64,000 nt of DNA from a virus. Its lineage: Duplodnaviria > Caudoviricetes. The position numbers were made by a program, and so were the translations under genes. Position 1 is the first letter of the stretch. Each line of letters opens with the position of its first letter. The DNA is taken from IMG/VR virus record IMGVR_UViG_3300031992_004562, positions 47,626 through 111,625 of that record; one strand, 5' to 3'. A model generated the notes under the pieces. It made no database searches, was not told the DNA's origin, and saw nothing but the letters and a program-made list of their open reading frames with translations. Positions 5,666 through 43,676 of this stretch are shown here, piece by piece.

Positions 5666-6235
5666 ATGAATAATAAACATTTATACAATAAAATTATAAA
5701 TGCTATAAATGAAAGTGTCTAGAATGCATTAAATGAATATAACAAATATGAAAATTCTGATCATCATCGTGGTGGCAATATTCATGATTTAAAATTTCTT
5801 GCATAGGTACTAACTAATAAATATGGTTATAAAGCATATCCTGTATCATCTACACTTGGAAAACCATATTAGTTAATTTTAAGAAGAGAAAGTGGAGTAA
5901 GAAAAAATGTTTATGTTCAACAACGAAAAAAGGGAACAACTTCAGGAAATATTGCATTAAGACTTAAAAAATATGGTGAAACATTATCATTATTAGACAA
6001 TCCAGAAATTAATGAAATTTGTTTGATATGCCCGCCTGTAATGAATTATGATCCAAGAGGTGAAGTAGTTGATAATACTAAAGCTTGTTTTTTTGAAAAA
6101 GATTATTTAAAAGATAAAGTTGAACATGGGGAAATTCCAATAACAAAAACACGAGATGGTGAAATGTTAATGCTTTCAGAAAAATGGATAAAAGAAAATG
6201 CAAAACAAATTATTTCATATAAATATATACGATAA
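5666..6235 (+). CDS. Hypothetical protein with variant leader B (MNNKHLYNKIINAINESVQNALNE), code 15
   Basis: ATG at 5666, three in-frame TAG, joins ORF 6023..6235; AATAAATA upstream. Confidence 0.75.
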
Positions 6236-24028: not shown

Positions 24029-24790
24029 TTAATTTACATTTTGATATGCAACTACAATAACTGTATAATATGAAGTAGTAGTTTGTTGTCCACCTTTAAC
24101 TTCTCTACTTATATATGATTGATTGCTAATTGTTTTAAATTGTAAAGCATATTTGTTAATTGCATCTTCACCATAAAGATGTTTTATATTATTTTCTGCA
24201 TCTTCCTGAGCCAATCTTTTAGCCTCACTTTCTGTATTTGCACAACCTACACCAGATGCAGCATAACGATTATCACTATCATCATCTAATGCATATAAAA
24301 CTTTAACAAAATCTGCTGCAGCTTGTTTTTTAACAGCTTCTAATTCTTCACCACTTTGTATTCCTCTTGCATGTGTCATATTAACAGTAGATGTTACCAT
24401 ACTATTACGAAGACTATCATCAAATTGTTGATTTGTTATTGCATTTGCAGAAAATGTACTTGATAATAAAGTTATTGTTGTTAAAACACCATATAAAGTT
24501 TTTTGACCTTTAGATGCAGCTTTCTTTACTACATCTGCAATAAATTTGCAAGATTTATTTCCAAATTTATTTTTAACTTTATTTAATGTTTTATTTAATG
24601 GCTCTTTAAATTTCTAAAAAATGTTTGTAGATTCACCTTCATTTAATGCAAATATATATGATAAACCATATTCTTCTAATAAATTTGCAGAAGATGATTC
24701 TTTATCCATTTCAGTTAAAGCTTTTTTGACTTCTTTGGCAACAGAAGTCATAATGCTTTCATATAATGCTTTTTTATTATAATTTTTCAT
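24029..24790 (-). CDS. Leader B + internal signal-like segment + LPP20-like domain, code 15
   Basis: MKNYNKKALYESIMTSVAKEVKKALTE; one TAG; KTLYGVLTTITLLSSTFSANA; YAASGVG..EAKRLAQEDA. Confidence 0.8.
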
Positions 24791-24807
24791 AATTAAAAAT
24801 TAATTTA

Positions 24808-25137
24808 TTATTCTTCATTATCATTATCAAATTCTTCTTCTGTCTCATCAAATGGGCCTTCCATTCCTGACAATATATCAGCAGCTTCACCTAAGCCATC
24901 TGCTAATTCACGAACATAATCAGATAATTCTTCATATGTTTCACAACTTGTGAAAGCACCACGACGGCATGATTCGACTTCATACTTCAAATCATAGATT
25001 TTATCTAAGACTTCAGTTAAGAAATCTAATTCATTCTCATCCCATCCATCCATTGTAGATTCATTAAGAGCTTTTTTAACATGGGTTGATACCGCTTTCA
25101 TAACGCTCTCAAATATTTTTTTATTTTCTCTAGTCAT
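24808..25137 (-). CDS. Leader B + acidic hypothetical domain
   Basis: MTRENKKIFESVMKAVSTHVKKALNE; ATG at 25137. Confidence 0.8.
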   Translation of the reverse strand: MTRENKKIFESVMKAVSTHVKKALNESTMDGWDENELDFLTEVLDKIYDLKYEVESCRRGAFTSCETYEELSDYVRELADGLGEAADILSGMEGPFDETEEEFDNDNEE

Positions 25138-25163
25138 AATTATATAAAAATATCTTTTTATTT

Positions 25164-25844
25164 TCAATCTTCACCTCTTTCCCATTGTTCATCTTTCCAA
25201 CGATCATACGCATCATCGTCATCATCATTGAAATATTCTTCATCGTAGTTATTATCTACGATTTCACTGATTTCATCAACGAAACAATCATCTAATTTAT
25301 TTTTAACAATTTCTTCTTTTGTTAAAACTGTATGATTATTATTGACATCTACGACATCTATTTCAACACCGGTAATAGTAATAGTATCAACTTCTCCATA
25401 TCCTCCCTCTGGTGGTTGATAGTAGTCGCCTGGACGATAAGGAACATAATCCCATGTAACATCAAAATCAACATTAATAGTTATATCTGAACATGGTACC
25501 TATACATAAATTGTTCCACCGCTCATTTCTGTATCTGAATCATAAATATAATTTTCATAATAAGAATATGCATTTGGATAGAATTTCTTATATTGTCTAG
25601 CCATTATAGACCAATCTATATTAGCAACAAAATTAATCAATTCATCTCTTGACATATTTTCAGCCAAAACATATTTTTCACCATCTCTGATTGTTTTGAA
25701 ATTTGCTGGCAATTCGTCAAAATGAATTGCATCCAATTCGGCTTCATGATAGCTAGAATATATTTTTTCTTCTTCCAATAATGCCTTTTTAACTTCTTTT
25801 GCTACAGCTGACATTATTGATTCATATAGTTCTTTTTTATTCAC
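25164..25844 (-). CDS. Leader B + acidic hypothetical domain, code 15
   Basis: GTG start, NKKELYESIMSAVAKEVKKALLE; one TAG at 25500-25502; ends TGA. Confidence 0.78.
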
Positions 25845-25883
25845 AATAATCCTATATTTGTTTTTATATTTATTTTTGTAAAA

Positions 25884-25920
25884 AAACATTTTTGGGTTAC
25901 TATGTTATAATTAATAAATA
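25884..25920 (+). promoter_or_regulatory. Tandem middle (AAAC-N18-TATAAT) and late (AATAAATA) promoter motifs upstream of suppressor tRNA
   Basis: AAAC 25884-87, TATAAT 25906-11, AATAAATA 25913-20. Confidence 0.55.
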
Positions 25921-25930
25921 TTAAAAATAT

Positions 25931-26003
25931 TGCCCCATTGCATAATGGCAGTGCGCATGACTCTAAATCATGGTCAGTCTCGGTTCGATTCCGAGTGGGG
26001 CTG
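25931..26003 (+). tRNA. Amber suppressor tRNA (anticodon CUA), probably Gln-charged; CCA not encoded
   Basis: Cloverleaf: GCCCCA/TGGGGC acceptor, GCAT/GTGC D-arm, CATGA-CTCTAAA-TCATG anticodon arm, CTCGG-TTCGATT-CCGAG T-arm, G73. Confidence 0.93.
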
Positions 26004-26052
26004 CAAATAAAACAGATAAATTTTTATATTTATCTGTTTTAATTTTTAATAA

Positions 26053-26358
26053 ATGCAATTAACAAAAGAAAATATAGATACATATATTGGAGAAATATTT
26101 AGAAATCGTGGATATATGTCAACATCATCACAAAAAAATTCTCCATGGGGCAAAAGATGGAATGAATGGGAATTGTTAATTCATATTACGGGTGACACGC
26201 AATATATAGATATTAATAAGGTATTTACACCTGACAAGATAGATTGTGAAGAACAAAATGAATTATTACTTCCACGAAATACTTTACTTCGTTTAGATAG
26301 TTATAAAATAATGCGAAATAAGGAAAAAACTTATTTGCTTGAGATGTCTATAATTTAA
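26053..26358 (+). pseudogene. C-terminal fragment of a VIP2/Alt-like ADP-ribosyltransferase
   Basis: GYMSTS and EQNELLLPRNT motifs present; N-terminal Arg motif absent; in-frame TAA TAA just upstream. Confidence 0.6.
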
Positions 26359-26375
26359 AACAAAGTTTAATTTTA

Positions 26376-26741
26376 ATGATAACTTTTGAATATAATGGAA
26401 AAATTTATAAACCTTCAAATCTTGAAAATAAATTGAAAAAGTTAGGTATTACAATAAATGATGTAAAGATTATTGATGATACTAAAACAAATGCAGAAAA
26501 AGAAAGAGAAGAAAGAAGCCAACAAATTTCTAATAATGAAGAAACTGTTGATGTTTATTGGGATAATAGATGTAAAGGCTGGTTTCTCGTAGATAGAAGA
26601 TTTCCATATTCAACAGATTGGGGAATAAGATTTTTTCAAGAAATTGAAAATGGAAGATATAAATTAGTTCAACATGATGTAAATAAAAATAATTTATATG
26701 AGTTTTTTGAAGAAAATTTTAAAAAGGTTATAGCTATTTGA
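26376..26741 (+). CDS. Hypothetical protein
   Basis: 121 aa ORF. Confidence 0.7.
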   Translation: MITFEYNGKIYKPSNLENKLKKLGITINDVKIIDDTKTNAEKEREERSQQISNNEETVDVYWDNRCKGWFLVDRRFPYSTDWGIRFFQEIENGRYKLVQHDVNKNNLYEFFEENFKKVIAI

Positions 26742-26791
26742 AGCAAATAAACTTTTTAATAATAAATAACATATAATAATTGATAATAGAA

Positions 26792-26866
26792 AATTCTTCT
26801 ATGACATCGGGATTGATTTAGATCCTTTGAGAATTGTTAAAGATTCAAAGATGCCGTAGAGAAGTT
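26792..26866 (+). ncRNA. Candidate structured 5' leader RNA (three-way junction)
   Basis: TCTATGACATC/GATGCCGTAGA outer stem enclosing GGGATT/GATCCT and TTTGA/TCAAA hairpins. Confidence 0.4.
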
Positions 26867-26889
26867 ATAAAAATAAATTTAAATGACTT

Positions 26890-27780
26890 ATGAAAAAGAC
26901 TAATTATTCAAACATTGCAGCTATTGCTGTTGACAAATCTCTCTTAAAAGAGTATCAAACTTCTTACGGAAGAACAGTTTATCTTGACAAAGATTCCGAA
27001 TTCCAAATTAAATTATTTAATCCTTATTCATTTACTGTTGGTGCTGAAATTATCATCAATGGTAAATCTCTTGGTGACACATTGATTATTAAACCTGGCC
27101 AATTAATTTGGTTAGAGCGTTATTTTAATGAAGCACGCAAATTCAGATTTGATGTTTATGAGGTTGACGCACAGGCAGAAGAAGTAAAACAAGCCATTAA
27201 AAACAATGGTGATATTGTAATAAAGTTTTATAAAGAAAAGGAACATGTAAGACGAGGTCTTGATATTTGGGCATCTAATGCACCAGTATATAATGGGTAT
27301 AATATTAATGGTACTACATATACTAATGGAATACCAGATATTTGTAAAAATATGACATTTAGTGCAACTGATATGGTTAACACTACATATACAAATAATG
27401 TTCCAGATGGTGCTCTTAGATGTGAACTTTCTGCATCAAGTTGTAATTATTCAAATTCACAACCAATTTCCCAACCTATAAGTAAAGGATTTGGTAATTT
27501 AAATTTAAATAAATTGCGTAGTGCTACAATGGATAGTGCTACAATGGAAACTGGCCGAGTAGAAAAAGGTGGTTATTCTGATCAAAGATTTATGACAGTA
27601 GATATTGATTTAGAATCTTGGCCATTTGTAACTGAAGAAATTAAGTTATTGCCTAAATCTCAAAAACCAGTTTATAAAGAGGACTTGGAAAAATTATATT
27701 GCCCACAATGCGGTCGTAAAGTTAAAACAAAATTTAAATATTGTCCATTCTGTGGTGGAAAACTTTAGGAAATATTCTAA
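26890..27780 (+). CDS. Hypothetical protein with C-terminal double zinc ribbon (ends 27768 if TAG is read as stop)
   Basis: CPQCG..CPFCGG; TAG followed by GAA ATA TTC TAA. Confidence 0.8.
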
Positions 27781-27831
27781 AAATATTTAAAATATTATAA
27801 ACAAAAATAGAGGCGGGTAATAAAATTATCA

Positions 27832-27875
27832 GCTTCTATTTTTCTATTTAAGATAAAAGTATTAATTTTGTAACG
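27832..27875 (+). promoter_or_regulatory. Early promoter motif copy, overlapping the upstream terminator hairpin
   Basis: GCTTCTATTTTTCTATTTAAGATAAAAGTATTAATTTTGTAACG. Confidence 0.7.
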
Positions 27876-27893
27876 AAATTAAAAGTAAAATAT

Positions 27894-28301
27894 ATGAACA
27901 AGTTACATTGTATTTATATTGATAGTGACTATCCAAGTCTTGGAAGGATGATTGAAAAGTTTGACAAAGGAATACTTCGTCCAGATGATGGTACTTTCAA
28001 TATTCCTTCTCAATTACATGGATTAAATGACGAATACTTATGGATTTTGTTGAATGGACGAATGATTCACATATTCATTGTAGATTGGGTTGACGAAGAA
28101 ACACATCAACATAGTCAATATACTAATGGAGAAGATATTGAAATCCTTAAAAGATTTGCATATGATCCTAATGCAGAATTTGCTGAAAAACTTGGTAGAT
28201 TATCATGTCTGGTAACGCAGTCTGTTATAAATCTTGATTCAATTGACAAAGAACGTGTAAAAACATTTTGGAATGACTATTATAATCATAATTTAAAATA
28301 A
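27894..28301 (+). CDS. Hypothetical protein
   Basis: First ORF after early promoter. Confidence 0.72.
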   Translation: MNKLHCIYIDSDYPSLGRMIEKFDKGILRPDDGTFNIPSQLHGLNDEYLWILLNGRMIHIFIVDWVDEETHQHSQYTNGEDIEILKRFAYDPNAEFAEKLGRLSCLVTQSVINLDSIDKERVKTFWNDYYNHNLK

Positions 28302-28308
28302 AAATAAT

Positions 28309-28593
28309 ATGGCTACAAAATTTCAAAAAGTATGTAATAAATTGAATAAGATTCTTGAGAATCGTCCTGAGAATCGTGAAGAATTTATTAATATGATCAA
28401 TGATATAATTGAAAAAGAAGTATTTAATAAGGGAGGTGATTTATATTGGGGTAGAGAATTATTCATTGATTCGAATTTTGACACTGAAGAGTGTAGAAAA
28501 AAGATACATCGAACTGATGTGATGTTTAGAGATACTAGAGATCCGGTTGAACATCCTGGAATTACACTTTGTTATAAATCAGAAGAAGCATAA
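28309..28593 (+). CDS. Hypothetical protein
   Basis: ORF in operon. Confidence 0.7.
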   Translation: MATKFQKVCNKLNKILENRPENREEFINMINDIIEKEVFNKGGDLYWGRELFIDSNFDTEECRKKIHRTDVMFRDTRDPVEHPGITLCYKSEEA

Positions 28594-28597
28594 GAAT

Positions 28598-28843
28598 ATG
28601 AAAACATTTGATTGGAAAAATGCAAAAGAGGAATTACCAAAAGAGGCATGTCATTATCCTGAGATTTGGTGTTCTCAACAAGTTTTAACGAGAAAAAAGT
28701 TTAAAACCAAAGAAGGCATTGAACGATATCATTATGAGGTTTGTATGTATAATTTTGATCATGGCGGAAGTTGGATGATTCTTAATAATCAGTTTAAATT
28801 CTATGAACCAGACGAATGGTGTGAACTTGAAATTTTTGCATAA
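28598..28843 (+). CDS. DUF551-like small protein
   Basis: MKTFDWKNAKEELP...PDEWCEL pattern; ATG at 28598. Confidence 0.55.
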   Translation: MKTFDWKNAKEELPKEACHYPEIWCSQQVLTRKKFKTKEGIERYHYEVCMYNFDHGGSWMILNNQFKFYEPDEWCELEIFA

Positions 28844-28860
28844 AAATAAAATAAACTAAT

Positions 28861-30168
28861 ATGAAAAAGGAAACATTTGACGAAGTTAAAAAATCTGGTA
28901 GATTGATTTATCAATATATTAGAGGTTCTCATGCATATGGACTTAATATTGAGACTTCTGATATTGATACTGGCGGTGTGTACATCACTACAAATGATGT
29001 TCTTCTTGGACTTCGTTCTGGTTATTGCGAGCAAATTGCAGATGCAAAGAATGATAATGTTTGGTATGAAGTTGGCCGTTTCCTTGAATTGTTAATGGCA
29101 TCTAATCCAAATATGTTGGAAGCATTATTTGTTCCTGAGAGATGTATTATTTACAAACATCCTGTAATGGATTATATTCTTGAGAACAAACATAAGTTTT
29201 TAACTAAAAAGGCATTTAATGCATTGGTTGGCTATTCAATTCAACAAATTGCCAAGGCCCGTGGTCTTAATAAGAAAATTGTTAAGCCGGTTAAGGTACG
29301 TAAAACACCTATTGATTTTTGCTATACCTTTAAAAATCAAGGTTCTGAGTCCGTAATGGAATTTTTGAATCGTCATGGTCTTAAACAAATCTATTGCGGT
29401 CTTGTGCATGTAGATAATATGGATCAGGCCTATGCAGCCTTTTATGACTGGGAACAACATATTCGTATGGAATGGAAAACCGCCGAGGAATTTGCAGATT
29501 TTCTTGTAGACGTAGTAATTAATGATAAAGAAAGTAAATTCATTGATAGCATTAAAGAAATGAATTATGACTTATGGTTCCAATTTATGCCACATATCAA
29601 ACATTGGACTGACGCTCAATACATTAGTGATGCTAGAGAACAATGGATTCGAAGGTATAATGAAATCAAACCCAAAGGCTATCATGGTATTCAAAAAGAA
29701 GATGGTTCTTCTAATGATGTACATCTTGATAGTGTAGTTAAAGGCGAAAAACCATTATTCCATCTTTTGTACAACAAAAATGGCTATGCATCTCATTGTC
29801 GAGAATATAAAGATTATAAAGACTGGGAGAAAAATCGTAACCAAGCACGTTATGAATCTAATCTTGATAAGAACTATGATTCTAAAAACATTATGCATTG
29901 TATTCGTCTTATTCAGATGGGCATTGAACTTGCAAAAACAGGTGAGCTTAATGTTGATAGAAGTGTAATGGGTGATAGAGAATTTCTGCTTGATGTTAGA
30001 AATCACAAATATGAATATGATTATTTGATTGATTACTGCGAACAGAAAAAAGCAGAAATGGATGAAGCCATTAAAACTACATCTCTTCCTGATGAAATTG
30101 ATAGGGAATTCGTAAATGAATTGCTATTAAGAGTACGAAAAGTATTTGATTATGCAGAAAATCGATAA
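28861..30168 (+). CDS. RlaP/YcgL-like nucleotidyltransferase (Pol-beta superfamily)
   Basis: RGSHAYGLNIETSDIDTGGVY, NPNMLEAL, YDSKNIMHCIRL. Confidence 0.88.
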   Translation: MKKETFDEVKKSGRLIYQYIRGSHAYGLNIETSDIDTGGVYITTNDVLLGLRSGYCEQIADAKNDNVWYEVGRFLELLMASNPNMLEALFVPERCIIYKHPVMDYILENKHKFLTKKAFNALVGYSIQQIAKARGLNKKIVKPVKVRKTPIDFCYTFKNQGSESVMEFLNRHGLKQIYCGLVHVDNMDQAYAAFYDWEQHIRMEWKTAEEFADFLVDVVINDKESKFIDSIKEMNYDLWFQFMPHIKHWTDAQYISDAREQWIRRYNEIKPKGYHGIQKEDGSSNDVHLDSVVKGEKPLFHLLYNKNGYASHCREYKDYKDWEKNRNQARYESNLDKNYDSKNIMHCIRLIQMGIELAKTGELNVDRSVMGDREFLLDVRNHKYEYDYLIDYCEQKKAEMDEAIKTTSLPDEIDREFVNELLLRVRKVFDYAENR

Positions 30169-30189
30169 GATTAATTTCTTATCGATTTT

Positions 30190-30981
30190 TTATTTCATTA
30201 AAACTGGTCTTACAAAAACACCATGTTCTCTTGCTATTGTATCAATACGTATTCTATTATCTTTTTCAATTTGCATACAATAATATAACCAATCAAACGC
30301 TTCAGGATATATATAACTTGTCATATAATATCCATAATTTAAATTTGTTAAGTTTACATTAATTGAATTTTCATTCTAAAGATACCCATGTATTGGAAAT
30401 ATTATTTCATTTCCATTTATTTTAGAGGTTAATTTACAAACATATAAATTTAAAACACCATTGTATGTATAATGAAAAGATTTTATTGTATTGGCTAATA
30501 ACTCTTCATATTGATCTATAGTTGGTACACAAATATTTACATGATATTTTTTATATAAATTGGAATTATATGCTGGGTCATCGCATAATTCTAATTTCAT
30601 TAATTTATCATCTTTATTATATTTAATATAATGATCTATAATATTTCTATTATTAATAGTTCGTTTTTCTAAAAATTTATACTATGTTGTTATTTTAGGT
30701 TTTAATTCACCAAATGCATAATAATCTCCATACCAATCAGCAGCTATTTCTAAATTATTAGGATTAACACCAAGATTATATTTTGACCACAACGTTTTAG
30801 ATGGAAGACCTAAATCGACAAAATTTTTCATTAACTCTATTTTATCATTGATGACATCATTTACATCTATAACATCATTACTCTAAGATATAGAATTATT
30901 ATCTTCCATATCTTGATAATCATCAAGTGCCAACTAAATACCTCTATTGACTGCCTCTAATATTTGTTTGTAATTTTGCAT
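30190..30981 (-). CDS. Leader A + DUF1566/FISUMP-like protein, code 15
   Basis: MQNYKQILEAVNRGI(Q)LALDDYQD..VDLGLPSKTLW..YYAFGE..GVFVRPV; 263 aa. Confidence 0.87.
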
Positions 30982-32438
30982 TATCTTAAAGTGTTGAATG
31001 ATTTTGCATAAACATTATATCCAAACATATATGCACAATTTGATGACGCATTAAATATTTCAAAAGGATTATTATAATTATCAATCACTATATCATTTGT
31101 AAGATTGATAGATGTATTACAGTTATTTAATATTGTAATATTTTTTACTGTGTTTATAGTGTTATTAAGTGTTAAATTATTTGATGAATTTATATATAAT
31201 TCATTAATATCATTAATATAAGTCGTAGCTGCAGCATTAATATTTATATTATTATCATTATTAATATACAAATTATTTAAAACAACACTATTTCCACTAA
31301 TATGAATATTATTATCATTATTTATTAGTGCATTTTTCATTACTGTAACAAGGCTGTCTGCATAAATAGTATTTTTATTTCCAATAATATTATTATTAAA
31401 CTATAATAATGGTGGATCTGCGTTTGTTTTTGTTCTTTTAATAAATATTGAACAATCATAACCAATATAATTATTTGATATTTCTCCACGACTAATAGCA
31501 TTATTTGAATAAAAAATTGGCATACATTTTGTTATATATGGGTTGGTTTTAATTATATTATTATAATAATCAACATTATTAAATGTTAAACGGAAACTAT
31601 CACCAGGATGTTTATATGTTAAATTACAAAAATCATATGGCGCTTCATTTCCACTACTATCTTTTAATAGTGTAATCTTTATTTCATATTTGGCGCCATT
31701 TTGAACTATATCATATGTTCCATAAACATTTAATGAATTTCCACTATGATCATACATATTATATAATTTACCATTAAATGTTGATGTATCATTTGCTTTA
31801 ACTAATAAACTTAATGAATTATAACTTAATGGACCACTAAAATTAAATCCAGGCATTGCCATACAACCATTAGTGTCTGTAGGTTCTGATTTATAATAAT
31901 CAGTAATTAAATAAAATTTATTTGGAATAAATGGTTTAGCATTTAATATCTATTTTAATGTTCCAACTGATGTATTTAACGCATCATATAATTTATTAAC
32001 ACTGCTATCTAACCCACCAATATGTTCATTAATATCATTAATTGACGCATTGAATAAATCACGTGTAGTATAATGTGTAAGAATTTCTGATAAATTATAG
32101 TTTTTAACATTTAACTATCTATATGTTGTTCCAGGAATAATATTTGTAGATATATTAGAAACAACAATATCTTCATTTGTATCTTTATCAACCAATTTAT
32201 AGTCTGGATATGGGCTTACTGAATATGTTGACCATGCTATAGATCCAATATTTGTACTTATATCAGGATCAATATTAACAGCAACTGGGAATCCAGAATA
32301 GACATACTTTCTTGCAATAATACTAGTATCATTATATTTACGTTCGACCTCATAATATAATGAAGTTAAATCTGTTGTTGGCGAAATATTAATACCACTG
32401 GCATCAATAAGTTGTAAACTTTTTGCGGTTGTTTGCAT
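30981..32438 (-). CDS. Putative tail fibre/structural protein with Asn-rich C-terminus, code 15
   Basis: Three ORF fragments in one frame joined through TAGs; paralog of 39336..40736. Confidence 0.72.
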
Positions 32439-32518
32439 AATTATAAAATTTAATCAATTTATTTCTATATTATTTATTTTTATTGAAACTTTTTATCATT
32501 TAAAGATATAATATTAGA

Positions 32519-32737
32519 ATGAAGAAATATCATGCACATAGAATAGATAAATGGATCTATGAATATAGAGGATTTAGAATTGAATGTGTGGGTTATTATA
32601 ATCCAGATCATAAAATTGCATGGGAAGCAGTTGACAAAGATGGATATGGATTTGCGCATGCATTTACATTAAAAGAATGTAAAAAGTGGGTAGATTATGA
32701 AATAGAAAAAAATCAAGAAAATAATGAAGAAAATTAA
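32519..32737 (+). CDS. Hypothetical protein
   Basis: ORF after AAAC-N17-TATAAT. Confidence 0.7.
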   Translation: MKKYHAHRIDKWIYEYRGFRIECVGYYNPDHKIAWEAVDKDGYGFAHAFTLKECKKWVDYEIEKNQENNEEN

Positions 32738-32780
32738 CTTCTATTTTTCTTATTAAAATAAAAATATTATTTTTGTAACA
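32737..32780 (+). promoter_or_regulatory. Early promoter motif copy
   Basis: ACTTCTATTTTTCTTATTAAAATAAAAATATTATTTTTGTAACA. Confidence 0.7.
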
Positions 32781-32800
32781 AATTTAAAAATTGAAATTAT

Positions 32801-34690: not shown

Positions 34691-34734
34691 GCCTTGGACC
34701 TTGTACAATCAGAATTAGAAAATGAATAGTATGG

Positions 34735-34768
34735 AGAAACTTCGATGAGATATCGAGGTTTCTTTTTT
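34735..34768 (+). terminator. Intrinsic terminator
   Basis: AGAAACTTCGAT/ATCGAGGTTTCT followed by T run. Confidence 0.7.
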
Positions 34769-34784
34769 AATAAATATATTGAAT

Positions 34785-35783
34785 ATGAAAAGATTTAATA
34801 AGCAAATATTAGAAGCAATCAATAGGGGTGTTTAGTTGGCACTTGATGATTTTGATTATAATGAAGATATAACAAAATCTAAAACTGATATAATTAATAC
34901 TGAAGAATATGCATTTAGTATTATAAACACATTATATAAAAAACTAACATCTGAAATATTAACTGTTTAGGAATTAGACCGTTTGGTACAATATTATCAA
35001 ATAACAAAGCAAAAATATAAAGTTTATTCTAGACAAGAGCTAAAAAGAATTATTGATTATGTAATTGGTGTTTATCAATCTGGTGATTTTGTTAAAGGAC
35101 TTAATCCTGATATAAAAACATTAAATTGGATAGATGTTTCTGAAGTAAAATATATGGATGAACTATTTAAAGGATTATAGTTTACATCAGATATTTCTGA
35201 ATGGGATGTTTCTAATGTTTTAACAATGTCAAATATGTTTGAAAACGCTACATTCACTTCAGACATTTCAAAATGGAATGTTTCTAAAGTTACAACAATG
35301 TATGGAATGTTTTCAGCATGTAATTTTGAAAGTGAATTATCTGATTGGGATGTTTCCCATGTAACTGATATGGGACATATGTTTTTCATTTCACCATTTA
35401 ATGGAGATATTTCAAAATGGAATGTTAAAAATGTAACTAATATGCCATATATGTTTTATGCAGCTGTATATTTTAATCAACCAATTGGAAAATGGAATAT
35501 GTCCAAAGTTAATAATATTGATGGTATGTTTAATATGGCTAGTAGTTTTAATTAGGATATTTCTAAATGGAATATTTCTAATGTTAAATCTTCTGAGCTT
35601 GCGTTTAGCAAATCTGGATTTGATTAGGATTTATCTAAATGGGATGGCGGAAATTTATCAATGACTACATTTAAAGGCAGTAAGATTTCTTCAAATCATT
35701 TACCAAAGTTTTGGCAAGAAAATGAAATGAATTTAGATGGCAAAAGAATATTAAATACATATTTACCAAAAGATTGGAATTAA
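34785..35783 (+). CDS. Leader A + DUF285/BspA-like LRR protein, code 15
   Basis: MKRFNKQILEAINRGV(Q)LALDDFD; FNGDISKWNVKNV repeats; FN(TAG)DISKW. Confidence 0.88.
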
Positions 35784-36502
35784 TGAAAAATTATAATAAA
35801 ATATTAGAAGCCGTTCATCGTGGTATTTAGTTAGCACTCGATGATTTTGAAGATATAGAAGATAATAATTCTATATTTTAGAGTAATGATGTCATTGATA
35901 CAGATGATTATATAGATGATAGAGTTACATATAATAAATTATTAGAAAAGTTTTTTGATTAGATGAGTGATAGCTTAGTTATAAAAGTATCTAAAGATGA
36001 TTTAAAAAAACTTGCAAATTTATCCAAAAATCTTGGTATGAAATTTAAAGTTGAAGATAATAGATTTTTACAAGATATAATTAAAACTGTTTGTAGAATA
36101 GATAAGTCTGCAAATTTAAATTGGATTGACACATCAGAAGTAACCAATTTTGAAAATCTATTTAATATGACACTATTTCATGGTGATATTTCAGAATGGG
36201 ATACACATAATGTCAAAAACATGTATTCATGCTTTGCTTATTCTCAATTCAATGGCGATATATCAAGATGGGATGTATCAAATGTTGAAAATATGAATTG
36301 GATGTTTTAGGGTTCTTGGTTTAACAAACCAATTGAAAATTGGAATGTAGCTAAAGTAAAAAGTATGAATGGAATGTTTAGTGAATCGCATTTTAATTAG
36401 AATATATCTAAATGGAATGTTGCAAATTGTAAAGGTTATATAAAATTTAATAATAAAAGCACATTAAAAAAATCTAATATACCACCAAAATTTAGAAAAT
36501 GA
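35783..36502 (+). CDS. Leader A + DUF285/BspA-like LRR protein, code 15
   Basis: MKNYNKILEAVHRGI(Q)LALDDFED; FNGDISRWDVSNV; TAATG coupling to previous gene. Confidence 0.88.
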
Positions 36503-36504
36503 TT

Positions 36505-36909
36505 ATGGACTCAAATAAGAAAAAACAATTATATGAATAGATTATGACTTCAGTTTCTAAAGAAGTCAAAAAAGTTTTAAATGAAGCACGTGCTAAAAAA
36601 TATGAATTCTCTAAAAAAGATTTAGATGAAATCAAAAAGTATATACTAAATGATGAAGATTTTTATAAAACATATTGTCAATATGCAAATTTAGATAGAT
36701 ACGATTCATATGAAGAAGCAGTAGATGATGTAATGAATTTTTTAGAATAGGATGTGTATACGGGTGATCCAGAAGATGATTTAGTAGTCCATAAATGGTA
36801 TATGTTAGATGAGCCTGATTTAGGGTGTTCATGGATGCAATTAAAATCTGGCAAAATTGCAAATTTAGATAATATATATAAAGAATTCAAAGGAATGATT
36901 GAAGAATAA
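36505..36909 (+). CDS. Leader B + hypothetical domain, code 15
   Basis: MDSNKKKQLYE(Q)IMTSVSKEVKKVLNE; two TAG. Confidence 0.8.
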
Positions 36910-36943
36910 AATAAGTTCTAGATTCACTTCTAGAACTTATTTT
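36908..36943. terminator. Bidirectional terminator
   Basis: AAAATAAGTTCTAGA/TCTAGAACTTATTTT inverted repeat. Confidence 0.75.
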
Positions 36944-37007
36944 TCTTATATAGTAGTTTATATGTTTTTAACTTTAAAATGCACCAGATTTAACAAGATT
37001 AACTTGA

Positions 37008-37376
37008 TTATTGGTTCATTACTATACCAAGGCATTTTAATTGATTTATTGAAATATTAATAACAGCATAATCAGATTTATTATAATGATCCTTTCCAAA
37101 ATCTACAGTTACATCAACATTAAACTTATCTCTATCATATGAAATATTTGATAAAATTGTGGTTTTAACTAATTCTGTAATTTCTTCTTGATTATAACTT
37201 AAATTAAAAATATATTTCTTAATATTTGCACCAAAATATGGAGCACCAAGAACATCACCATATGATGTTCCTAATATCATCTTTATCTATGATAATATTT
37301 GTTCCATTTCATTAGTTGTCTCAACTAATGGAACATATTGCTAATCTGATGCTAATCTATTATAAATATCAATCAT
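37008..37376 (-). CDS. Baseplate wedge subunit, T4 gp25-like, code 15
   Basis: ILS(Q)IKMILGTSYGDVLGAPYFGANIKKYIF; ATG 37376. Confidence 0.72.
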
Positions 37377-37377
37377 A

Positions 37378-39303
37378 TTATGTTAATGGTGTATATTTTG
37401 TAAGTGTTCTTGATAATTTATTTGATTTCTTTTCTTCAAATTTAATATTAAATGCTGAAATTCCAGATATGCTTTGTTTTTCTGAATATTGTGTTCCATT
37501 TTTATCTAAGAACCCACCTCTAACTAATGGAAGAATGTCTTTAACATTCATTATTTGTCCATTATTGTCTTTAATGGTTCTTGTTAAAATAATATCTCCA
37601 TATCCATCAATACCATCAAAATTATTTCCATAGATATTTTTATTATTTACATCTGCAACAAATTGTGCTTTAACAGAATCTACTCCAGGAACATCATTTT
37701 CAAATATAGAAATAATATCAGAAATAGGAATCATATCTTTACGTTCTCTATTTATAAAGTATTCTGATAATTTATCTAATGCAGCTGCATATACTTCTTG
37801 TTCATCATAATTTTCCCAAATTTTAACTTGAACATTTAATGCAAATCTTGCAATTTTTGGTTGAATTATTCTATTTTCAAGTGTTATAATTCGTTGACCA
37901 GATGCATTAATTAAATTAATAATATTTTCTTGTTCATCTTCTGATAACCAGAATAATGATTCATCACATGTAAAATAATTTGAAGATGATGGCATACGTT
38001 TTTTAATATCTGGAACTAAGAAAATATAAATTGTATTATCTCTATATGTGTTATCTGATAATTTTGTAGATGTGTATTTATACATCTAATATTTCTTTTC
38101 CATTTCTTTATGAGCCTACGCAACTTCTTCACTACCTTCACCATAAATATTAATCGCATCGTTATATAATGCTCTGGCATCGGTATAATCTTTATAAGCT
38201 TTATCACTTGCTAATTGCATAACAGATGAGCCATTAACAGTATATGATCCTCTAAATATTTCAATATCAGAAAACATATTCATTCGTCTAAAGAAATAAT
38301 TATAATTTACTTCAGATGCTAAAACATATGAACGACTAACATGTGGAGCAATTAATTGTGTTAATGCAAGATCTTCACCATATGTTCCAAATATAATATC
38401 AGTTGTCAATCTAATTTTGAAATTTCCATTTAATTTAACAGCCTCACCTGTAGGAAGAACACCAGTTCCATCCCATTCCCAATTATCTGCAATATTTACA
38501 TCATTCATAAATAAGTTGGAGTTTTCACCATCTGTGACAATATATTCAATAATAATTGTAGATGATTGAGGAGGAATTGCACCCATTGCACCATTTCCAA
38601 AAAATACATCAAGACCGGAATTAATGCCTGTACGAACTACACATCCTTTTTGATTAAATCCTAAATCTAAAATAGATTTATAAATTTCCCATGGTTCACC
38701 ATTTACATATACATTAATATAATATTGATCAACTTCTTGATAATTTCTTTCTGCAAAATTATATGATTGTAGTGGTTCACCTGTACCTGTTGCCTATTGA
38801 AGTTTAATTTCACCCTAAATTAAATTTGCATCAATATAATTGCCTGCATTCATTGTTATTTTTGCATTATTAGCACCAAATAAAAGTGTATAAGTTAAAC
38901 CATTTCTTTTACTAATTACCTTAGTTTTATTTGGAATATAACAAACACCACCATTTAATTGATAGTTTCCCGTATCAACATAATAAATTTGACATGCACC
39001 GCGAGCAGAAATTGGCCGTGAAGTATCATGCCCAGCCAACTATGCCAAACCTTTAACTTGGTCTGGACGGTATGCAGTACGAATATTTAAACCCGTAATA
39101 GAATCTTCAATATAATAAAATATCATTCTTCCAAGATGAAGAATAACTTGAAGCAATTGGCCAAAAGGTGATGCAGTATTAAATTCTTGCCCTGCAGCCT
39201 TATAAGTTGACTTGATATAAGCCAATGCGTCATAATACAATTCACTAAATTTTATTCTATTTAGTTTAAAAATTTTTATTTCTTTATCATCTTTATTAGC
39301 CAT
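37378..39303 (-). CDS. Baseplate wedge protein, T4 gp6-like, code 15
   Basis: Four ORF fragments in one frame; LA(Q)LAGH..AR; VFFGNGAMGAIPP..IEY; 641 aa. Confidence 0.8.
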
Positions 39304-39335
39304 ATGTAAGCCAATTTAATTTTACTTTTTATTTA

Positions 39336-40736
39336 TCATCTTAATGATGCATATCCCATTGTGTATACACTTACATTATTTGTATCGCTGCCAAATAATA
39401 TAGTACTTGAACATAATTTTTGATGTTCGTATGCCATTCTAGCTGCATCACTAAAAAATAATCTTGTATTATTTAATATTGATGTATCTAATGGTACTGG
39501 ATTTGTATCATTGGCACCAATAATAATATTATTATATCCTAAATTAAGATTCTAATTTGTAAGATTAATTAAAACATTATTATTTCCTTCAATATTAATA
39601 GAACAATCATTACAATTTATAAGAACATTATTATTTCCAACAATAACTACACTACAATCATCTACAAACTCATATGTAGCATTATTTATTGAATTATAAA
39701 TTTTATTAGATGATCCATTTGATATACATATGCCTGAGCTATAATATACATTATTATTTGAGCATTTTTTACTAAATGTAATTTTATCTGAATCATATAT
39801 TTCATTATTACTATAATAATATTCATTTTGATATGATAGAGCATATGTAAAATATATAGATGAATCATTTGGATCAAAATATAATTTATTATTTACAAAG
39901 CGTTTAATATTGCCCATATTAGAATTAGGATCAAATATTAAATAATGTATAGATGAATTTGTAAAATCAAAATTTCCTTCATTTCCATATTCATCTTTTA
40001 AATATGTAATTTTATTGGATGCTGTATCATAATGAAACTCTCCATATGTTTTATTATAATATGATGCATCATCTAAAGATACCTAAGAACAATCACCATT
40101 TATAGAAATATTCTAAACTTTAATACTCATAATTGGTGTATTCCAACTACGTGGCTCATAATCAATAAAATATATGTCATTTTCTTCTTCAGGAACTACT
40201 TTATCATTATTATAAATTAGTTCATGTAAATGACTCATAACTTCTTCACATTTTTTAACACTTGCATCCAAAGAACTCGTATTAATTGATGAAAGACTTG
40301 CATTAATATTTTGAATAGATGCATCAAAATAATATAATTGTTGATAATGATTTAATAATTCATGCAAATCTACATATGTATTATTAACAACACTAAATAA
40401 ACTAGAATTATACCAAAACTTATTTTTGTCTTTGTCATATGGATTATGTTCATCAACTGTATAAAGAGATGTATTTATATATACATGTGGATCGTTATTA
40501 GATAATTCATATACTGCATCAAATGATAAAGATTCTAATTCGTAAGGGGCAGTGTTAACAAATTTAAAATCTTTATTAAATTGCACAGGCATATTTTTAA
40601 CAAAAGACTTTCTATGAATAACTATTTTGCCATCTTCTTTTTTAGCCTATTCATAATATAGTGAATCAATATTCGTTATAGGAGAAATTTTGTTAAATCT
40701 ATTATCTAAATACTATACCTTTTTACTAGTAAACAT
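39336..40736 (-). CDS. Putative tail fibre/structural protein, code 15
   Basis: 466 aa continuous frame; ISPITNIDSLYYE and LKDEYGNEGNFDF shared with 30981..32438. Confidence 0.72.
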
Positions 40737-40753
40737 TCAATTATCAATTATTT

Positions 40754-40999
40754 TTACCATTTTTTCTATGGGCATCCGTCAATTGATACTCCATTTTCAT
40801 CCTCTGGGTAATCAACTCTAACTTTTGCCTTTATAATACATCCACATAATTCACAAATTCCATCTTTATTATGTGTGCAATTATTACATATTTCTAATCT
40901 TTCTTTTGCCTTCTATTTAGTTTTTCCAGAAATAATATTCCAAGTCCATACTAAATACCCAGCAATAATATAACATATATGTTTAAAAAAATTTTTCAT
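40754..40999 (-). CDS. Small Cys-rich protein (RLxICxxC..CxxCGC..AK..CPxxKW; DUF6171-like), code 15
   Basis: 81 aa with two TAG; absent from ORF track. Confidence 0.75.
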
Positions 41000-41001
41000 T
41001 T

Positions 41002-42957
41002 TTAAGCTTTCCATTCAACTTTGCCTTCATATAATGTTGAATTTTGTGTATCATCATTATCAATCATTAATGAGAAATATCTTTCTGATGCTGGCACACT
41101 CATAATAGCGCCTGCATTATCTTTACTAATATAGAATGATAATGATCCATTTCCATAATTTGTCTTATCATTGTCCAAATTTGCAAATATATCAAGAGTT
41201 CCACCTGATATTGATGGGAAAACTAATTTATATTTCCAAGGGCCTGTTAAATCATATGGAACACGTGTATTGTCCTAATTAAGTGTATATAATTTAATTA
41301 AATAATTAGATCCACTATGATTTAATTTAAGTGTAAGTTTTCCTTGTGCATATATATTTTCAGAACCATCATTTGCAACTAATTCTGTAACATCATAAAA
41401 TTCTCTAATAATTTTTGCATTAACAGATTTTTGTTCTTGGCTAGATATTATTGCATTTTGTTTTTCAATTTTATTAACAATTTTATAATTAATTACATTA
41501 GTTGTATCTATTGATGTTAATACATATTTGTAAGGATTTTTAATTGTCATTGATGCAGAACGAACAATATCAGTATTATTCATTCTATTATATAAATGAC
41601 AATTATATTGAATAACAATTGATTTGCAATTCATATTCAATCTCTCTTTAATATATGGAACAAATTTTGTAATATAAAAATCTCCATCATCTACAGTCTT
41701 TCCTGTATAATCAATTGTATTTGTATAATAATCTGTATATGATTCTGTTCCAGTATCTTCGCCACTGTTAGAATTATCAAGATGATAGATTCTATTATAA
41801 TTGTAAGTAACTGATAATTCATTAATGACAATCCATTTAAATACATCTTCACCATACATTTCAATAAAATCATCCATACCCTGATTAGCTGAATCATATT
41901 CACTATAATTTGTTAATGGAATTTCACCATTATTAAACTTAGTCATTATTTCAATATTTACTGGCTATACATTAAAACCATCACCATATGTTGGATGATA
42001 TATGATTGAATGTGTTGTAACATCTTCATATAATTTTACACCAAAATTATTTGCATTTGATTCTGGATAAATTGACATTTGCTTAATATTATCCAAAATA
42101 AATGTTGATGGACCATTTGAATTATGAGTATCTTCTAATTCAATATTATCAGGTGTAACTGTTGCAAATTCAACAATTATATTTGATGATCTATCAATTG
42201 TACCACGTAAATATATTTTATTCCCATCTTCATCTTCATCTTCATAAAGATAATCAATATCTCTATGATTAACTGCAATATCCTATGCAGATGGAAGTGT
42301 AATTTCAATATATCTATCATAAAATTTACTATTAAGATATAAAGGAGACTCTAACCAATGAATATTGTCTTTTAATTCTTCTTTTGGCATATACCAATTT
42401 AAAAGATAAACATAATCATCAATGCGTTTTACTAATGTTTGATCTTCTCCTGTTTCTTCATCTTGAAATTTTGTAGAAACTCTAAGAACTTTACCTTTTA
42501 CTTTTACAGAATATCCACCAATACTATTCATTACATATCCAGTTAAAAGATAAAGTCTAATTGTATCACAATATATTTGGTCTTCTCTATCTTCTTTTGG
42601 TGTTTCATCTGTATTTTTAATTATTGTTCCAGCAGTAAAATCAGTTTCAACTAATTCTTCTCCGTCATAATAATCTACAAATATATTACTTCCATATTGG
42701 TCAGTTTGGCTATTATAGCCTTTTGTTATTAATGAATTTTTACCACCGTAATATTGTGTAAATTTATCAGATTTCTAATATAATCCATGTTTCTAATTTT
42801 CATTTAACAAACAATATTGATTACCATCAATACCTTTATACATTATGAAATTTTTATTTTCTTTGCCAGAAGAATTTCTAAGTATAACATATTGATCTGT
42901 TTTATATTCTAATAATACTTGACCTGTTAATTGAAAAAACTTTGATTGTACAGCCAT
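41002..42957 (-). CDS. Putative structural protein, code 15
   Basis: ATG 42957; ORF fragments in one frame to TAA 41002; AATAAATA upstream. Confidence 0.72.
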
Positions 42958-43061
42958 AATAAACTATATATAAAATATTTTCTTTTATTATTTATTTTGC
43001 AAAAATAAAAGACCACTATTTTCACAGTGGTCTTAAAATATACTAATATTTTAATTTAAAA

Positions 43062-43676
43062 TTATTTTTTACCTGGGCGAATATTATTTTCATTTAAGAA
43101 TTTTGTAAATCTACCTGCGTTAAAATTGCGTGCTTCTTGAACCTTTTTATTTTCTCCACAACTTTCGCCACATTCTTTTCCTTCACATTGGCAAGGATTT
43201 TTTCCACATTTATCACAAACTTTGCCTTCTTTACATTCTTTTCCTTCATTTTTAGATTGGTTAGCCTATTCAGGTTGTTTGCCTTTTTGTTCACCATATG
43301 CATTACGAACTTCTTTAGCAAGGAAATTTGCTGTATATTGAATATCTTCATTTTGCATTTCTGGCAATTTATCTTGAATAGTTTTATCGCATCTATTCAA
43401 AATAGCATTTGCCAATTGAACAATATTAGCAATTTTTACTGGGTTTTCACCAATTTTTTTGCCTTTAATAAGACGTCCCATACCACGAAGAACATTTGCC
43501 CAATCATCTGGATTGGCGTTCTTAACAATGTTTTGAATTTGTTTGTCTTTCTTTACTAATTCAAGAAGTTTATCTGCAACTTCTGTATCATCAAATTGAA
43601 AATCTTCATTAAGAGTTTTTTTCAATTCTTTAGCAACATTATCCATGATGCTTTCATATAATTTTTTCTTATTCAT
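43062..43676 (-). CDS. Leader B + Cys-rich (CDKCGKNPCQC) protein, code 15
   Basis: MNKKKLYESIMDNVAKELKKTLNE; one TAG; ends TAA 43062. Confidence 0.8.

What the first reader, a model, noticed from the sequence alone, without database searches (positions are those of the whole stretch)
24029..43676. Second portable leader (B): KxLYESIMxxVAKEVKKALNE on unrelated proteins
Seen: genes starting at 24790-, 25137-, 25844-, 36505+, 43676- and a variant at 5666+ share a ~25 aa amphipathic N-terminus ending L(N/T/L)E, followed by unrelated and mostly acidic domains. Three are tandem beside the suppressor tRNA. Established: T4-type prohead proteases cut after LxE. Inference: a cleavable capsid-targeting propeptide marking internal head proteins injected with the DNA. 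With leader A this suggests a two-address sorting code.
Basis: partly seen in the sequence, partly recalled or inferred. Interest (0 to 1): 0.82.

Follow-up and report, generated by a model that had tools for sequence, protein, structure and literature searches.

The report
Capsid-loading leader peptide of Lak megaphages
Six unrelated small proteins of this giant gut phage start with the same 24-27-residue peptide, which ends in the motif its relatives' T4-type head protease probably cuts, so it is most likely a removable tag that loads proteins into the phage head for injection, though no experiment shows this.

Summary
Observation confirmed. Read with TAG as a sense codon, six genes (starts 24790-, 25137-, 25844-, 36505+, 43676-, 5666+) open with [N/K]KKxLYESIMxxVAKEVKKAL(N/T/L)E. 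A profile of the six scores 43-48 bits on them and at most 8 bits elsewhere in the 111.6-kb contig. The six bodies are unrelated.

The contig is a fragment of a Lak-like megaphage. The leader occurs in 13-19 genes in each of three related contigs, in at least 1,270 protein clusters, and among 50,697 GenBank phages only in Prevotella Lak phages. It sits at the N-terminus, and similarity stops after an invariant L-x-E, nearly always LNE. Synonymous codons vary freely, so selection acts on the peptide.

New support for cleavage comes from relatives, which have a T4 gp21-type protease and gp23-type capsid protein. Hydrophobic-N-E is 6-7 times over-represented in the protease-scaffold proteins. KSLNE|A is conserved in the capsid protein's N-terminal region. 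One leader gene starts 22 nt after a protease gene. Cargo includes a complete sigma-70 factor.

Verdict: a long, clade-specific counterpart of the T4 capsid targeting sequence (confidence 0.6). Cleavage and packaging are not shown, and this fragment lacks the head genes. The "two-address code" is untested. The scan noted this leader before on other DNA (e1-5708154).

The parts
24029..24790 (-). Leader-B gene 1 (253 aa, 1 in-frame TAG). The leader is residues 1-27 (24710-24790) and ends ALTE. A second LNE lies at residues 49-51, and a hydrophobic stretch at about 101-119.
24808..25137 (-). Leader-B gene 2 (109 aa, no TAG). The leader is residues 1-26 (25060-25137) and ends ALNE. The cargo has pI 4.05. 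Orthologues at 46-49% identity in relatives keep the leader.
25164..25844 (-). Leader-B gene 3 (226 aa from the GTG at 25844, 1 TAG). The leader is residues 1-24 (25773-25844) and ends ALLE. The cargo has pI 4.05.
25931..26004 (+). Suppressor tRNA (anticodon CUA), facing away from the tandem leader genes. It is the basis for reading TAG as sense.
   Evidence: in the leader alignment TAG alternates with CAA (Gln) at one column
36505..36909 (+). Leader-B gene 4 (134 aa, 2 TAG). The leader is residues 1-27 (36505-36585) and ends VLNE. It follows two leader-A genes and precedes the baseplate block. Its cargo is conserved at 57-62% identity in at least 8 relatives, always with the leader.
43062..43676 (-). 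Leader-B gene 5 (204 aa, 1 TAG). The leader is residues 1-24 (43605-43676) and ends TLNE. It lies on the same strand inside the late structural block that holds a baseplate-wedge-like gene at 37378-39303.
5666..6235 (+). Divergent leader-B gene 6 (189 aa, 3 TAG). The leader is residues 1-24 (5666-5737), reads MNNKHLYNKIINAINESVQNALNE, and is intermediate in sequence between leaders B and A.

Best explanation
Leader B is a capsid-targeting propeptide, the Lak-megaphage counterpart of the T4 capsid targeting sequence (CTS). The proposed mechanism has four steps, all inferred. (1) The basic helical leader (pI about 9.5) docks the newly made late protein onto the assembling prohead core, probably on the very acidic scaffold-like tail fused to the prohead protease. 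(2) When the prohead is complete, the gp21-type serine protease cuts after the Glu of the terminal L-N-E. It cuts the same h-N-E motif in the capsid protein's N-terminal region and many times in its own scaffold tail. (3) The leader and scaffold fragments leave the capsid, and the unrelated cargo domains stay inside with the DNA. (4) The cargo is ejected into the host, where members such as a complete sigma-70 factor, a helix-turn-helix protein, a YbaK-type tRNA-editing domain and many small acidic proteins act in takeover or counter-defence. What the data show directly: the leader family, its strict N-terminal position, its sharp L-N-E boundary, peptide-level selection, restriction to the Lak clade, T4-type head genes in close relatives, and specific enrichment and conservation of h-N-E in those head proteins.
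For: Family and boundary:
- There are six members here and none weaker.
- Three related contigs hold 13-19 copies each.
- 857 representatives at 50% identity and at least 1,270 clusters at 90% identity carry the leader.
- 228 of 238 leaders start within six residues of the N-terminus. P3-P2-P1 is LNE in 234 and L-x-E in 238 of 238. P1' is variable.
- Glu is the only invariant column in 57 full-length proteins.
- 54 cargos fall into 42 unrelated clusters.

Peptide-level selection:
- All 57 leader DNAs differ. Identity by codon position is 0.78, 0.85 and 0.585.
- Ser is encoded by both codon families and Leu by five codons.
- The DNA upstream of the six genes is not conserved.

Head machinery:
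- Pfam Peptidase_S77 matches G001 at 59.7 bits, above the cut-off. G001 is 35% identical to T4 gp21 over 124 residues, and GELDHP and VSSR align with T4 His85 and Ser140.
- The complete 673-kb G003 has an orthologue.
- The Gp23-family capsid protein is present in G001, G002 and G003.
- G002 and G003 are true relatives of this contig: the window's baseplate protein is 73% and 55% identical, with conserved gene order.

Motif:
- [LIVM]NE occurs 10 times against 1.5-1.8 expected in the G001 protease-scaffold protein, and 6 times against 0.8 in G003. No shuffle reached the observed count (P < 0.001), also with shuffles inside 40-residue blocks. Control tripeptides are not enriched, and five sites sit at aligned positions.
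- The protease N-terminus reads KKLNE|G, comparable to T4 gp21 LIE-9.
- The capsid protein has MINE|A and KSLNE|A conserved in all three relatives, upstream of the core. T4 gp23 is cut at LTE-65.

Other:
- One leader-B gene starts 22 nt after the G001 protease gene.
- Five of six window genes and 36 of 54 relatives carry in-frame TAG, which marks late expression.
- The T4 precedent (L/I-x-E rule, 10-residue CTS on unrelated internal proteins) is in PMC9026906, and IPII and IPIII both begin MKTYQEFIAE|A.
Against: - There is no proteomic, structural or expression evidence.
- This contig (22% complete) holds no protease or capsid gene, so the link rests on relatives.
- LNE is not depleted inside cargo domains (5 observed, 4.4 expected). 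A depletion might have been expected if every site were cut, although T4 mature proteins also keep uncut motifs.
- The leader has no significant sequence similarity to the T4 CTS and is 2.5 times longer.
- The helical hydrophobic moment is not significant against shuffles (p = 0.15), so 'amphipathic' is not established.
- The AlphaFold model draws the leader as a helix (residues 3-28) but at pLDDT about 44.
- Leader genes in the window and in G003 lie nearer baseplate genes than head genes.
- The sigma-factor member has no TAG codon, so its timing is open.
Confidence: 0.6

Rival explanations
1. Leader B is an uncleaved docking helix. It would tether diverse proteins to one shared partner, such as a virion hub, scaffold, tail or baseplate component, or a host protein. 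The terminal LNE would then be part of the binding surface and not a cleavage site.
For: Two window members and four G003 members lie beside baseplate genes. Leader A, a possible distant homologue, carries lectin-type binding domains that would make more sense outside the capsid. LNE is not depleted in the cargo.
Against: The two best-conserved positions are exactly P3 Leu and P1 Glu at the very end of the leader. The same tripeptide is specifically enriched in the protease-scaffold protein and conserved at the expected capsid-protein maturation region. Cargo such as sigma-70, a tRNA-editing domain and a helix-turn-helix protein acts in the cytoplasm and is not built into a structure.
Confidence: 0.15
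2. Leader B is a regulatory pro-sequence, like those of pro-sigma factors. It would keep proteins inactive or unstable until a protease removes it, timing their activity inside the infected cell, with no packaging into the capsid.
For: Full sigma-70 factors carry the leader in several Lak lineages. From established knowledge, Bacillus pro-sigma-E and pro-sigma-K carry N-terminal pro-sequences of about 20-27 residues that are removed by proteolysis. The L-x-E end fits a protease site.
Against: More than 1,000 unrelated and mostly tiny cargos would all need the same control. From established knowledge, T4-type prohead proteases become active only inside assembled proheads, so cleavage at h-N-E implies residence in the prohead. 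No second candidate protease was identified.
Confidence: 0.1
3. Leader B is a localisation helix for the infected cell, for example binding a membrane or a replication compartment. It would be unrelated to the virion.
For: It is a Lys-rich helix with hydrophobic residues spaced at i and i+4. One cargo has a hydrophobic segment.
Against: The hydrophobic moment is not significant. There is no hydrophobic core of the Sec type. This reading does not explain the invariant terminal L-x-E or its match to the head-protein motifs.
Confidence: 0.07
4. The similarity is a DNA-level module, a recombination or gene-start cassette (promoter, ribosome-binding site and first codons) that spreads by gene conversion, and the peptide has no function.
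For: The genes are tandem and dispersed with swappable bodies. Other scan notes describe cassette-like behaviour in a marine megaphage (e1-5373611, not tested here).
Against: Upstream DNA is not conserved. All 57 leader DNAs are unique, the third codon position is only 58.5% identical, and Ser and Leu switch between codon families. The same peptide is kept across genomes whose orthologous cargos are only 30-60% identical.
Confidence: 0.03

Closest known systems
Phage T4 capsid targeting sequence (CTS) on internal proteins IPI, IPII, IPIII and Alt, removed by prohead protease gp21 (Mullaney and Black 1996; reviewed in PMC9026906)
   Same: Both are N-terminal peptides shared by otherwise unrelated, fast-evolving small proteins. 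Both end in L/I-x-E with cleavage expected after Glu. In both, the phage has a gp21-family protease and a gp23-family capsid protein that carry the same motif. Both sets of genes are late and partly tandem.
   Different: Leader B is 24-27 residues long, against 10 in T4. It has no significant sequence similarity to MKTYQEFIAE. P2 is almost fixed as Asn. There are about 13-19 members per related contig, and probably more in a whole genome, against 4 in T4. Cargo includes a full sigma factor. The protease is fused to a roughly 400-residue acidic scaffold-like tail. Nothing has been shown experimentally.
Propeptides of inner-body and ejection proteins of phiKZ, 201phi2-1 and SPN3US, cut by gp175/gp245 at S/A/G-x-E or A-x-E (PMC5694885, PMC9026906)
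   Same: These are giant phages with many head-internal proteins processed after Glu by a diverged gp21 homologue. The protease undergoes self-processing, and some paralogues share identical N-terminal residues.
   Different: Those propeptides are mostly long (about 80-130 residues), belong to paralogue families and are not portable tags on unrelated bodies. P3 is small (S, A or G), not Leu.
Encapsulin cargo-loading peptides
   Same: A short portable peptide addresses diverse cargo to the inside of an HK97-fold shell.
   Different: They are usually C-terminal, are not cleaved, and have an unrelated sequence. No protease is involved. This comparison rests on recall and was not tested here.
Leader A of the same phage (MKxxNKQILEAVNRGIQLALDDFEDIE)
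   Same: It has the same position and the same opening (MKxxNK, hydrophobic residue, then Glu), sits on neighbouring late genes, and the 5666+ copy is intermediate in sequence. hhalign aligns aLnE with ALDD (probability 49%, E 1.7e-4).
   Different: It ends in Asp-Asp rather than h-N-E. It carries lectin-like and binding bodies. Homology to leader B is not established.

Membership tests
T4-type capsid targeting propeptide (functional class) | Extreme N-terminal peptide shared by otherwise unrelated proteins | tested here: met
   Six of six in the window. 228 of 238 database leaders start by residue 6. 54 cargos fall into 42 clusters.
T4-type capsid targeting propeptide (functional class) | Ends in the prohead-protease motif L/I-x-E | tested here: met
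   L-x-E in 238 of 238 leaders, LNE in 234. In the window the endings are LNE four times, LTE once and LLE once. The T4 rule is in PMC9026906.
T4-type capsid targeting propeptide (functional class) | The phage encodes a gp21-family (Peptidase_S77) prohead protease | tested here: inconclusive
   Met in relatives G001 (59.7 bits; 35% identity to T4 gp21 with His and Ser aligned) and G003. Not found in the window's own 22%-complete contig, which gave only a weak 16-bit hit.
T4-type capsid targeting propeptide (functional class) | The same motif is used at the maturation sites of capsid and core proteins | tested here: met
   h-N-E is enriched 6-7 fold in the protease-scaffold proteins, and KSLNE|A and MINE|A are conserved in the capsid protein's N-terminal region. 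The sites are inferred from sequence. Cleavage was not observed.
T4-type capsid targeting propeptide (functional class) | The peptide is necessary and sufficient for packaging and is removed in the prohead | not testable with these tools
   This needs virion proteomics or fusion experiments.
T4 CTS sequence family (MKTYQEFIAE) | Recognisable sequence similarity to the T4 IPII/IPIII leader | tested here: not met
   The T4 leaders were read from AF158101. Only a loose K-x-Y-x-E-x-I resemblance is visible, and the lengths are 10 against 24-27 residues. I compared them by eye and ran no alignment statistics.
Any Pfam or PHROG family | A match of the leader or of the window proteins above threshold | tested here: not met
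   Only a few cargo bodies in relatives match: sigma-70, tRNA_edit and a terminase-small-type helix-turn-helix.
Sec-type signal peptide | Hydrophobic core of about 10-15 residues after a basic N-region | tested here: not met
   The sequence shows charged residues every 2-4 positions throughout the leader.

The most novel reading that the evidence does not exclude
Lak megaphages would carry a packaged and injected protein set that can be read from sequence. Every protein that begins with leader B, dozens per genome and over a thousand kinds in the clade, would be loaded into the head, freed by cleavage after LNE and injected. The set would include a ready-made sigma factor that reprogrammes host RNA polymerase before any phage gene is read. 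Leader A, a possible homologue whose P1 Glu is replaced by Asp, would be a non-cleavable version that keeps its cargo tethered, giving a true two-class address code. In T4 the same Glu-to-Asp change blocks processing but not targeting (PMC9026906).
Probability: 0.15. Interest if true: 0.85.

Novelty: new variant of a known kind. Interest (0 to 1): 0.66.

Why it matters
Lak megaphages are among the largest known phages, are common in animal and human guts, and have never been cultivated, so nothing is known about their virion contents. If the leader is a capsid-loading tag, the packaged and injected proteins of the whole clade can be listed from sequence alone. That list holds over a thousand cargo families, nearly all of unknown function, and is a candidate reservoir of host-takeover and anti-defence proteins. 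An injected sigma factor would be an unreported way for a phage without a virion RNA polymerase to start its programme. The inferred h-N-E specificity also gives a concrete, cheap test: protease domain plus leader-reporter fusion. No paper in the searched library links Lak phages with capsid targeting or propeptides.

Tried and rejected
- **DNA repeat or cassette explanation:** rejected on codon analysis and the lack of upstream conservation.
- **Depletion of LNE or [LI]xE inside cargo:** no signal. This is neutral.
- **Amphipathicity by hydrophobic moment:** not significant, so I do not call the leader amphipathic.
- **AlphaFold2 on the 36505+ family (9 sequences):** mean pLDDT 54, too poor for a fold search. 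Only the helical call for the leader is noted.
- **Searches of solved structures with the relatives' capsid protein, as a single sequence and as a profile:** no hit. I placed the site relative to T4 gp23 by BLASTP and Pfam coordinates instead.
- **Megablast of 20 kb of the window against GenBank phages:** no match.
- **Pfam on ten neighbouring structural genes:** nothing useful.
- **Late promoter-like ATAAATA:** commoner upstream of TAG-containing genes (24 of 58 against 10 of 64), but an exact copy precedes only one of the six leader genes.
Full report
**What the window is.** The window is bases 47,626-111,625 of a single 111,625-bp virus contig. The contig has about 27% G+C and is rated 22% complete. 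It has one tRNA, with anticodon CUA, at 25931-26004. Reading TAG as a sense codon joins many fragmented frames into long genes. An earlier scan note called the contig Lak-like. I checked this in two ways. The leader peptide occurs among 50,697 GenBank phage records only in 15 Prevotella phage Lak genomes. The window's baseplate-wedge-like protein (37378-39303) is 73% identical over its full length to a gene of a 204-kb contig (G002) and 55% identical to one of a complete 673-kb genome (G003), with the neighbouring leader gene in the same place.

**The observation.** Translations from the six stated starts all open with the same peptide:

| Gene start | Leader |
|---|---|
| 24790- | MKNYNKKALYESIMTSVAKEVKKALTE |
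| 25137- | MTRENKKIFESVMKAVSTHVKKALNE |
| 25844- (GTG start) | MNKKELYESIMSAVAKEVKKALLE |
| 36505+ | MDSNKKKQLYEQIMTSVSKEVKKVLNE |
| 43676- | MNKKKLYESIMDNVAKELKKTLNE |
| 5666+ (divergent) | MNNKHLYNKIINAINESVQNALNE |

- A profile built from the six finds only these six in all six frames of the whole contig (42.7-48.1 bits). The next hit scores 8.1 bits.
- After the terminal Glu the proteins share nothing (best pairwise E 0.73).
- None matches a Pfam or PHROG family above threshold.
- Three cargos are strongly acidic, one is neutral and two are basic, so "mostly acidic" holds better for the wider family than for the window.
- Five of the six genes contain in-frame TAG. In a recoded phage this marks genes translated after the suppressor is available, that is, late genes.

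**How wide the family is.**
- Back-translated patterns found the leader in 43 loci of IMG/VR contigs of up to 673 kb.
- These loci hold 65 leader-bearing frames. Nearly all have the leader within six residues of the start codon, with consensus MKKDNKKALYESIMTSVAKEVKKALNE.
- A profile search counts 6 copies in this fragment, 16 in G001 (380 kb), 19 in G002 and 13 in G003.
- Against 1.84 billion representative proteins the 33-position profile gives 857 hits at E of 0.001 or better.
- Against the collection clustered at 90% identity it gives at least 1,270 clusters.
- Of 238 database leaders that reach the end of the model, 228 start by residue 6. The last three residues are LNE in 234, LLE in 2, and LRE and LDE in one each. 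The next residue is variable. These are top-scoring hits, so the bias towards the consensus is partly built in.
- In 57 full-length proteins the only invariant column is the terminal Glu.
- 54 distinct cargos fall into 42 BLASTP clusters.
- Orthologous cargos in relatives, at 30-62% identity, keep the leader, which is better conserved than the body.

**Peptide or DNA element.**
- Upstream DNA of the six genes is not alignable.
- All 57 leader-coding DNAs are different, and identity by codon position is 0.78, 0.85 and 0.585.
- The conserved Ser is written with AGC, AGT, TCA, TCT and TCG. The P3 Leu is written with TTA, CTT, TTG, CTC and CTA.
- Selection is therefore on the peptide, and the recombination-cassette reading is rejected.
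- At one column TAG alternates with CAA, which fits TAG = Gln.

**The link to the head protease.** This fragment has no head genes, so I looked in the relatives.
- G001 has a Peptidase_S77 (T4 gp21) match above the Pfam cut-off.
- The gene encodes 593 residues. Its first 150 or so are 35% identical to T4 gp21. GELDHP aligns with T4 GELNHP (His85) and VSSRA with VSSRG (Ser140).
- The rest is an extremely acidic, scaffold-like tail.
- G003 has a 612-residue orthologue at 42% identity.
- G001, G002 and G003 all have a Gp23-family capsid protein.

**The motif.**
- In the two protease-scaffold proteins, hydrophobic-Asn-Glu occurs 10 and 6 times against 1.8 and 0.8 expected. No whole-protein shuffle in 2,000 reached the observed count, and neither did any of 5,000 shuffles confined to 40-residue blocks.
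- Control tripeptides (hEN, ENh, hND, hNK, hNN, hDE, hKE, hEE) are not enriched. Asn is by far the commonest P2 among h-x-E.
- Five sites lie at aligned positions of the two orthologues.
- The protease N-terminus reads PLKKLNE|GQ in G001 and PLLLE|AV in G003. T4 gp21 has LIE-9 in the same place (PMC9026906).
- The capsid proteins of all three relatives conserve MINE|AW (residues 17-19) and KSLNE|A (residues 51-53), upstream of the segment that aligns with T4 gp23 residues 93-144. T4 gp23 itself is cut after FLTE-65.
- In G001 a leader-B gene starts 22 nt after the protease stop codon.
- So the tripeptide that ends the leader is the one the head machinery of these phages appears to use. This is inference from sequence statistics and homology. 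Cleavage was not observed.

**What the cargo is.** Almost none of the cargo has a known domain. The exceptions are instructive:
- a complete sigma-70 factor (regions 1.2, 2, 3 and 4; phrog_351 at E 6e-43) on contigs of 313-554 kb and in a second lineage;
- a small helix-turn-helix protein of the terminase-small type, and a YbaK-type tRNA-editing domain;
- weak matches to lectin-like and beta-solenoid families.

These proteins act in a cytoplasm and are not built into a particle, which fits ejected proteins better than structural adaptors. The first window gene has a second LNE at residues 49-51 and a hydrophobic segment.

**Tests that did not help.**
- LNE is not depleted in cargo.
- The hydrophobic moment of the consensus is not significant.
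- The AlphaFold model of the 36505+ family is of low confidence. It draws the leader as one helix, residues 3-28, that ends at the LNE boundary.
- The genes cluster no more clearly with head genes than with baseplate genes. In T4 too, ipII and ipIII lie away from the head module.

**Leader A and the "two-address code".** Seven window genes begin MKxxNKQILEAVNRGIQLALDDFEDIE. Profile-profile comparison with leader B gives probability 49% and E 1.7e-4, and it aligns aLnE with ALDD. The 5666+ leader is intermediate between the two. Homology is possible but unproven. Leader A lacks the h-N-E end. In T4, Asp at the P1 position blocks processing but not targeting (PMC9026906), so a cleavable class and a non-cleavable class is an attractive idea. 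Nothing here tests it.

**Comparison with what is known.** The closest system is the T4 CTS on IPI, IPII, IPIII and Alt. IPII and IPIII both begin MKTYQEFIAE|A, and the review notes that the CTS may be an evolutionary device for loading varied proteins (PMC9026906). Leader B works like a CTS on every feature that sequence can test. It is not a sequence relative of the T4 CTS, it is 2.5 times longer, it fixes Asn at P2, and it is used on a far larger scale. The giant phages phiKZ and SPN3US process head proteins after Glu, but with long propeptides specific to paralogue families (PMC5694885). No paper in the library connects Lak phages with capsid targeting or propeptides. The scan itself has noted the same 27-residue leader on another Lak-like genome (e1-5708154) and CTS-like tags in other megaphages. 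Those are unchecked AI notes and I do not count them as evidence.

**Verdict.** The capsid-targeting, protease-cleaved propeptide reading is the best explanation (0.6). It is a new variant of a known kind. The two-address idea is open. Interest is 0.66.

Noticed in passing
window 6264-7115(-), 19783-20736, 20733-21473, 21461-22258, 30190-30981(-), 34785-35783, 35783-36502: Leader A family: seven late genes begin MKxxNKQILEAVNRGIQLALDDFEDIE. A similar ALSLDDFDDEE stretch lies about 20 residues into the 693-aa protein at 44684-46765(-). hhalign against leader B gives probability 49%.
   Followed up: partly
L041/L042/L043 (IMG/VR contigs of 313-448 kb), P0192, P0185, P0083: A complete sigma-70 family protein carries leader B in Lak-size genomes. 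It is a candidate packaged and injected sigma factor, or a pro-sigma factor. This gene has no in-frame TAG.
   Followed up: partly
L044 1423-3204 (G001) and L045 802-2640(-) (G003): The prohead protease of these phages is fused to a roughly 400-residue, extremely acidic, scaffold-like tail (593-612 aa, against 212 aa in T4 gp21). The upstream gene in G001 consists of PER-x-IP-x-Q-type repeats.
   Followed up: partly
P0007 (database protein, 130 aa): One frame holds two leader-B copies, at residues 1-25 and 99-121. It could be a polyprotein, or two tandem genes read through.
   Followed up: no
window 24029-24790(-): After the leader (ALTE) this protein has a second LNE at residues 49-51 and a hydrophobic stretch GVLTTITLLSSTFSANAIT at about residues 101-119 that ends like a signal-peptidase site.
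   Followed up: no
window 43062-43676(-): The cargo holds a Cys-rich stretch (CKEGKVCDKCGKNPCQCEGKECGESCGE) followed by a basic tail. It could be a metal-binding or knotted module.
   Followed up: no
whole contig G000: ATAAATA within 80 nt upstream is commoner for TAG-containing genes (24 of 58) than for TAG-free genes (10 of 64), which fits a late promoter element.
   Followed up: partly
window 25931-26004(+): ARAGORN labels the CUA tRNA as tRNA-Pyl. In the leader alignment TAG alternates with CAA at one column, which fits a Gln suppressor.
   Followed up: partly
window 22290-23528(-): A TAG-free 412-aa protein with a clear N-terminal signal peptide (MKRVFLYLAMMLIGVLTFAQE) lies just beside the tandem leader genes. 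It has no Pfam match.
   Followed up: no
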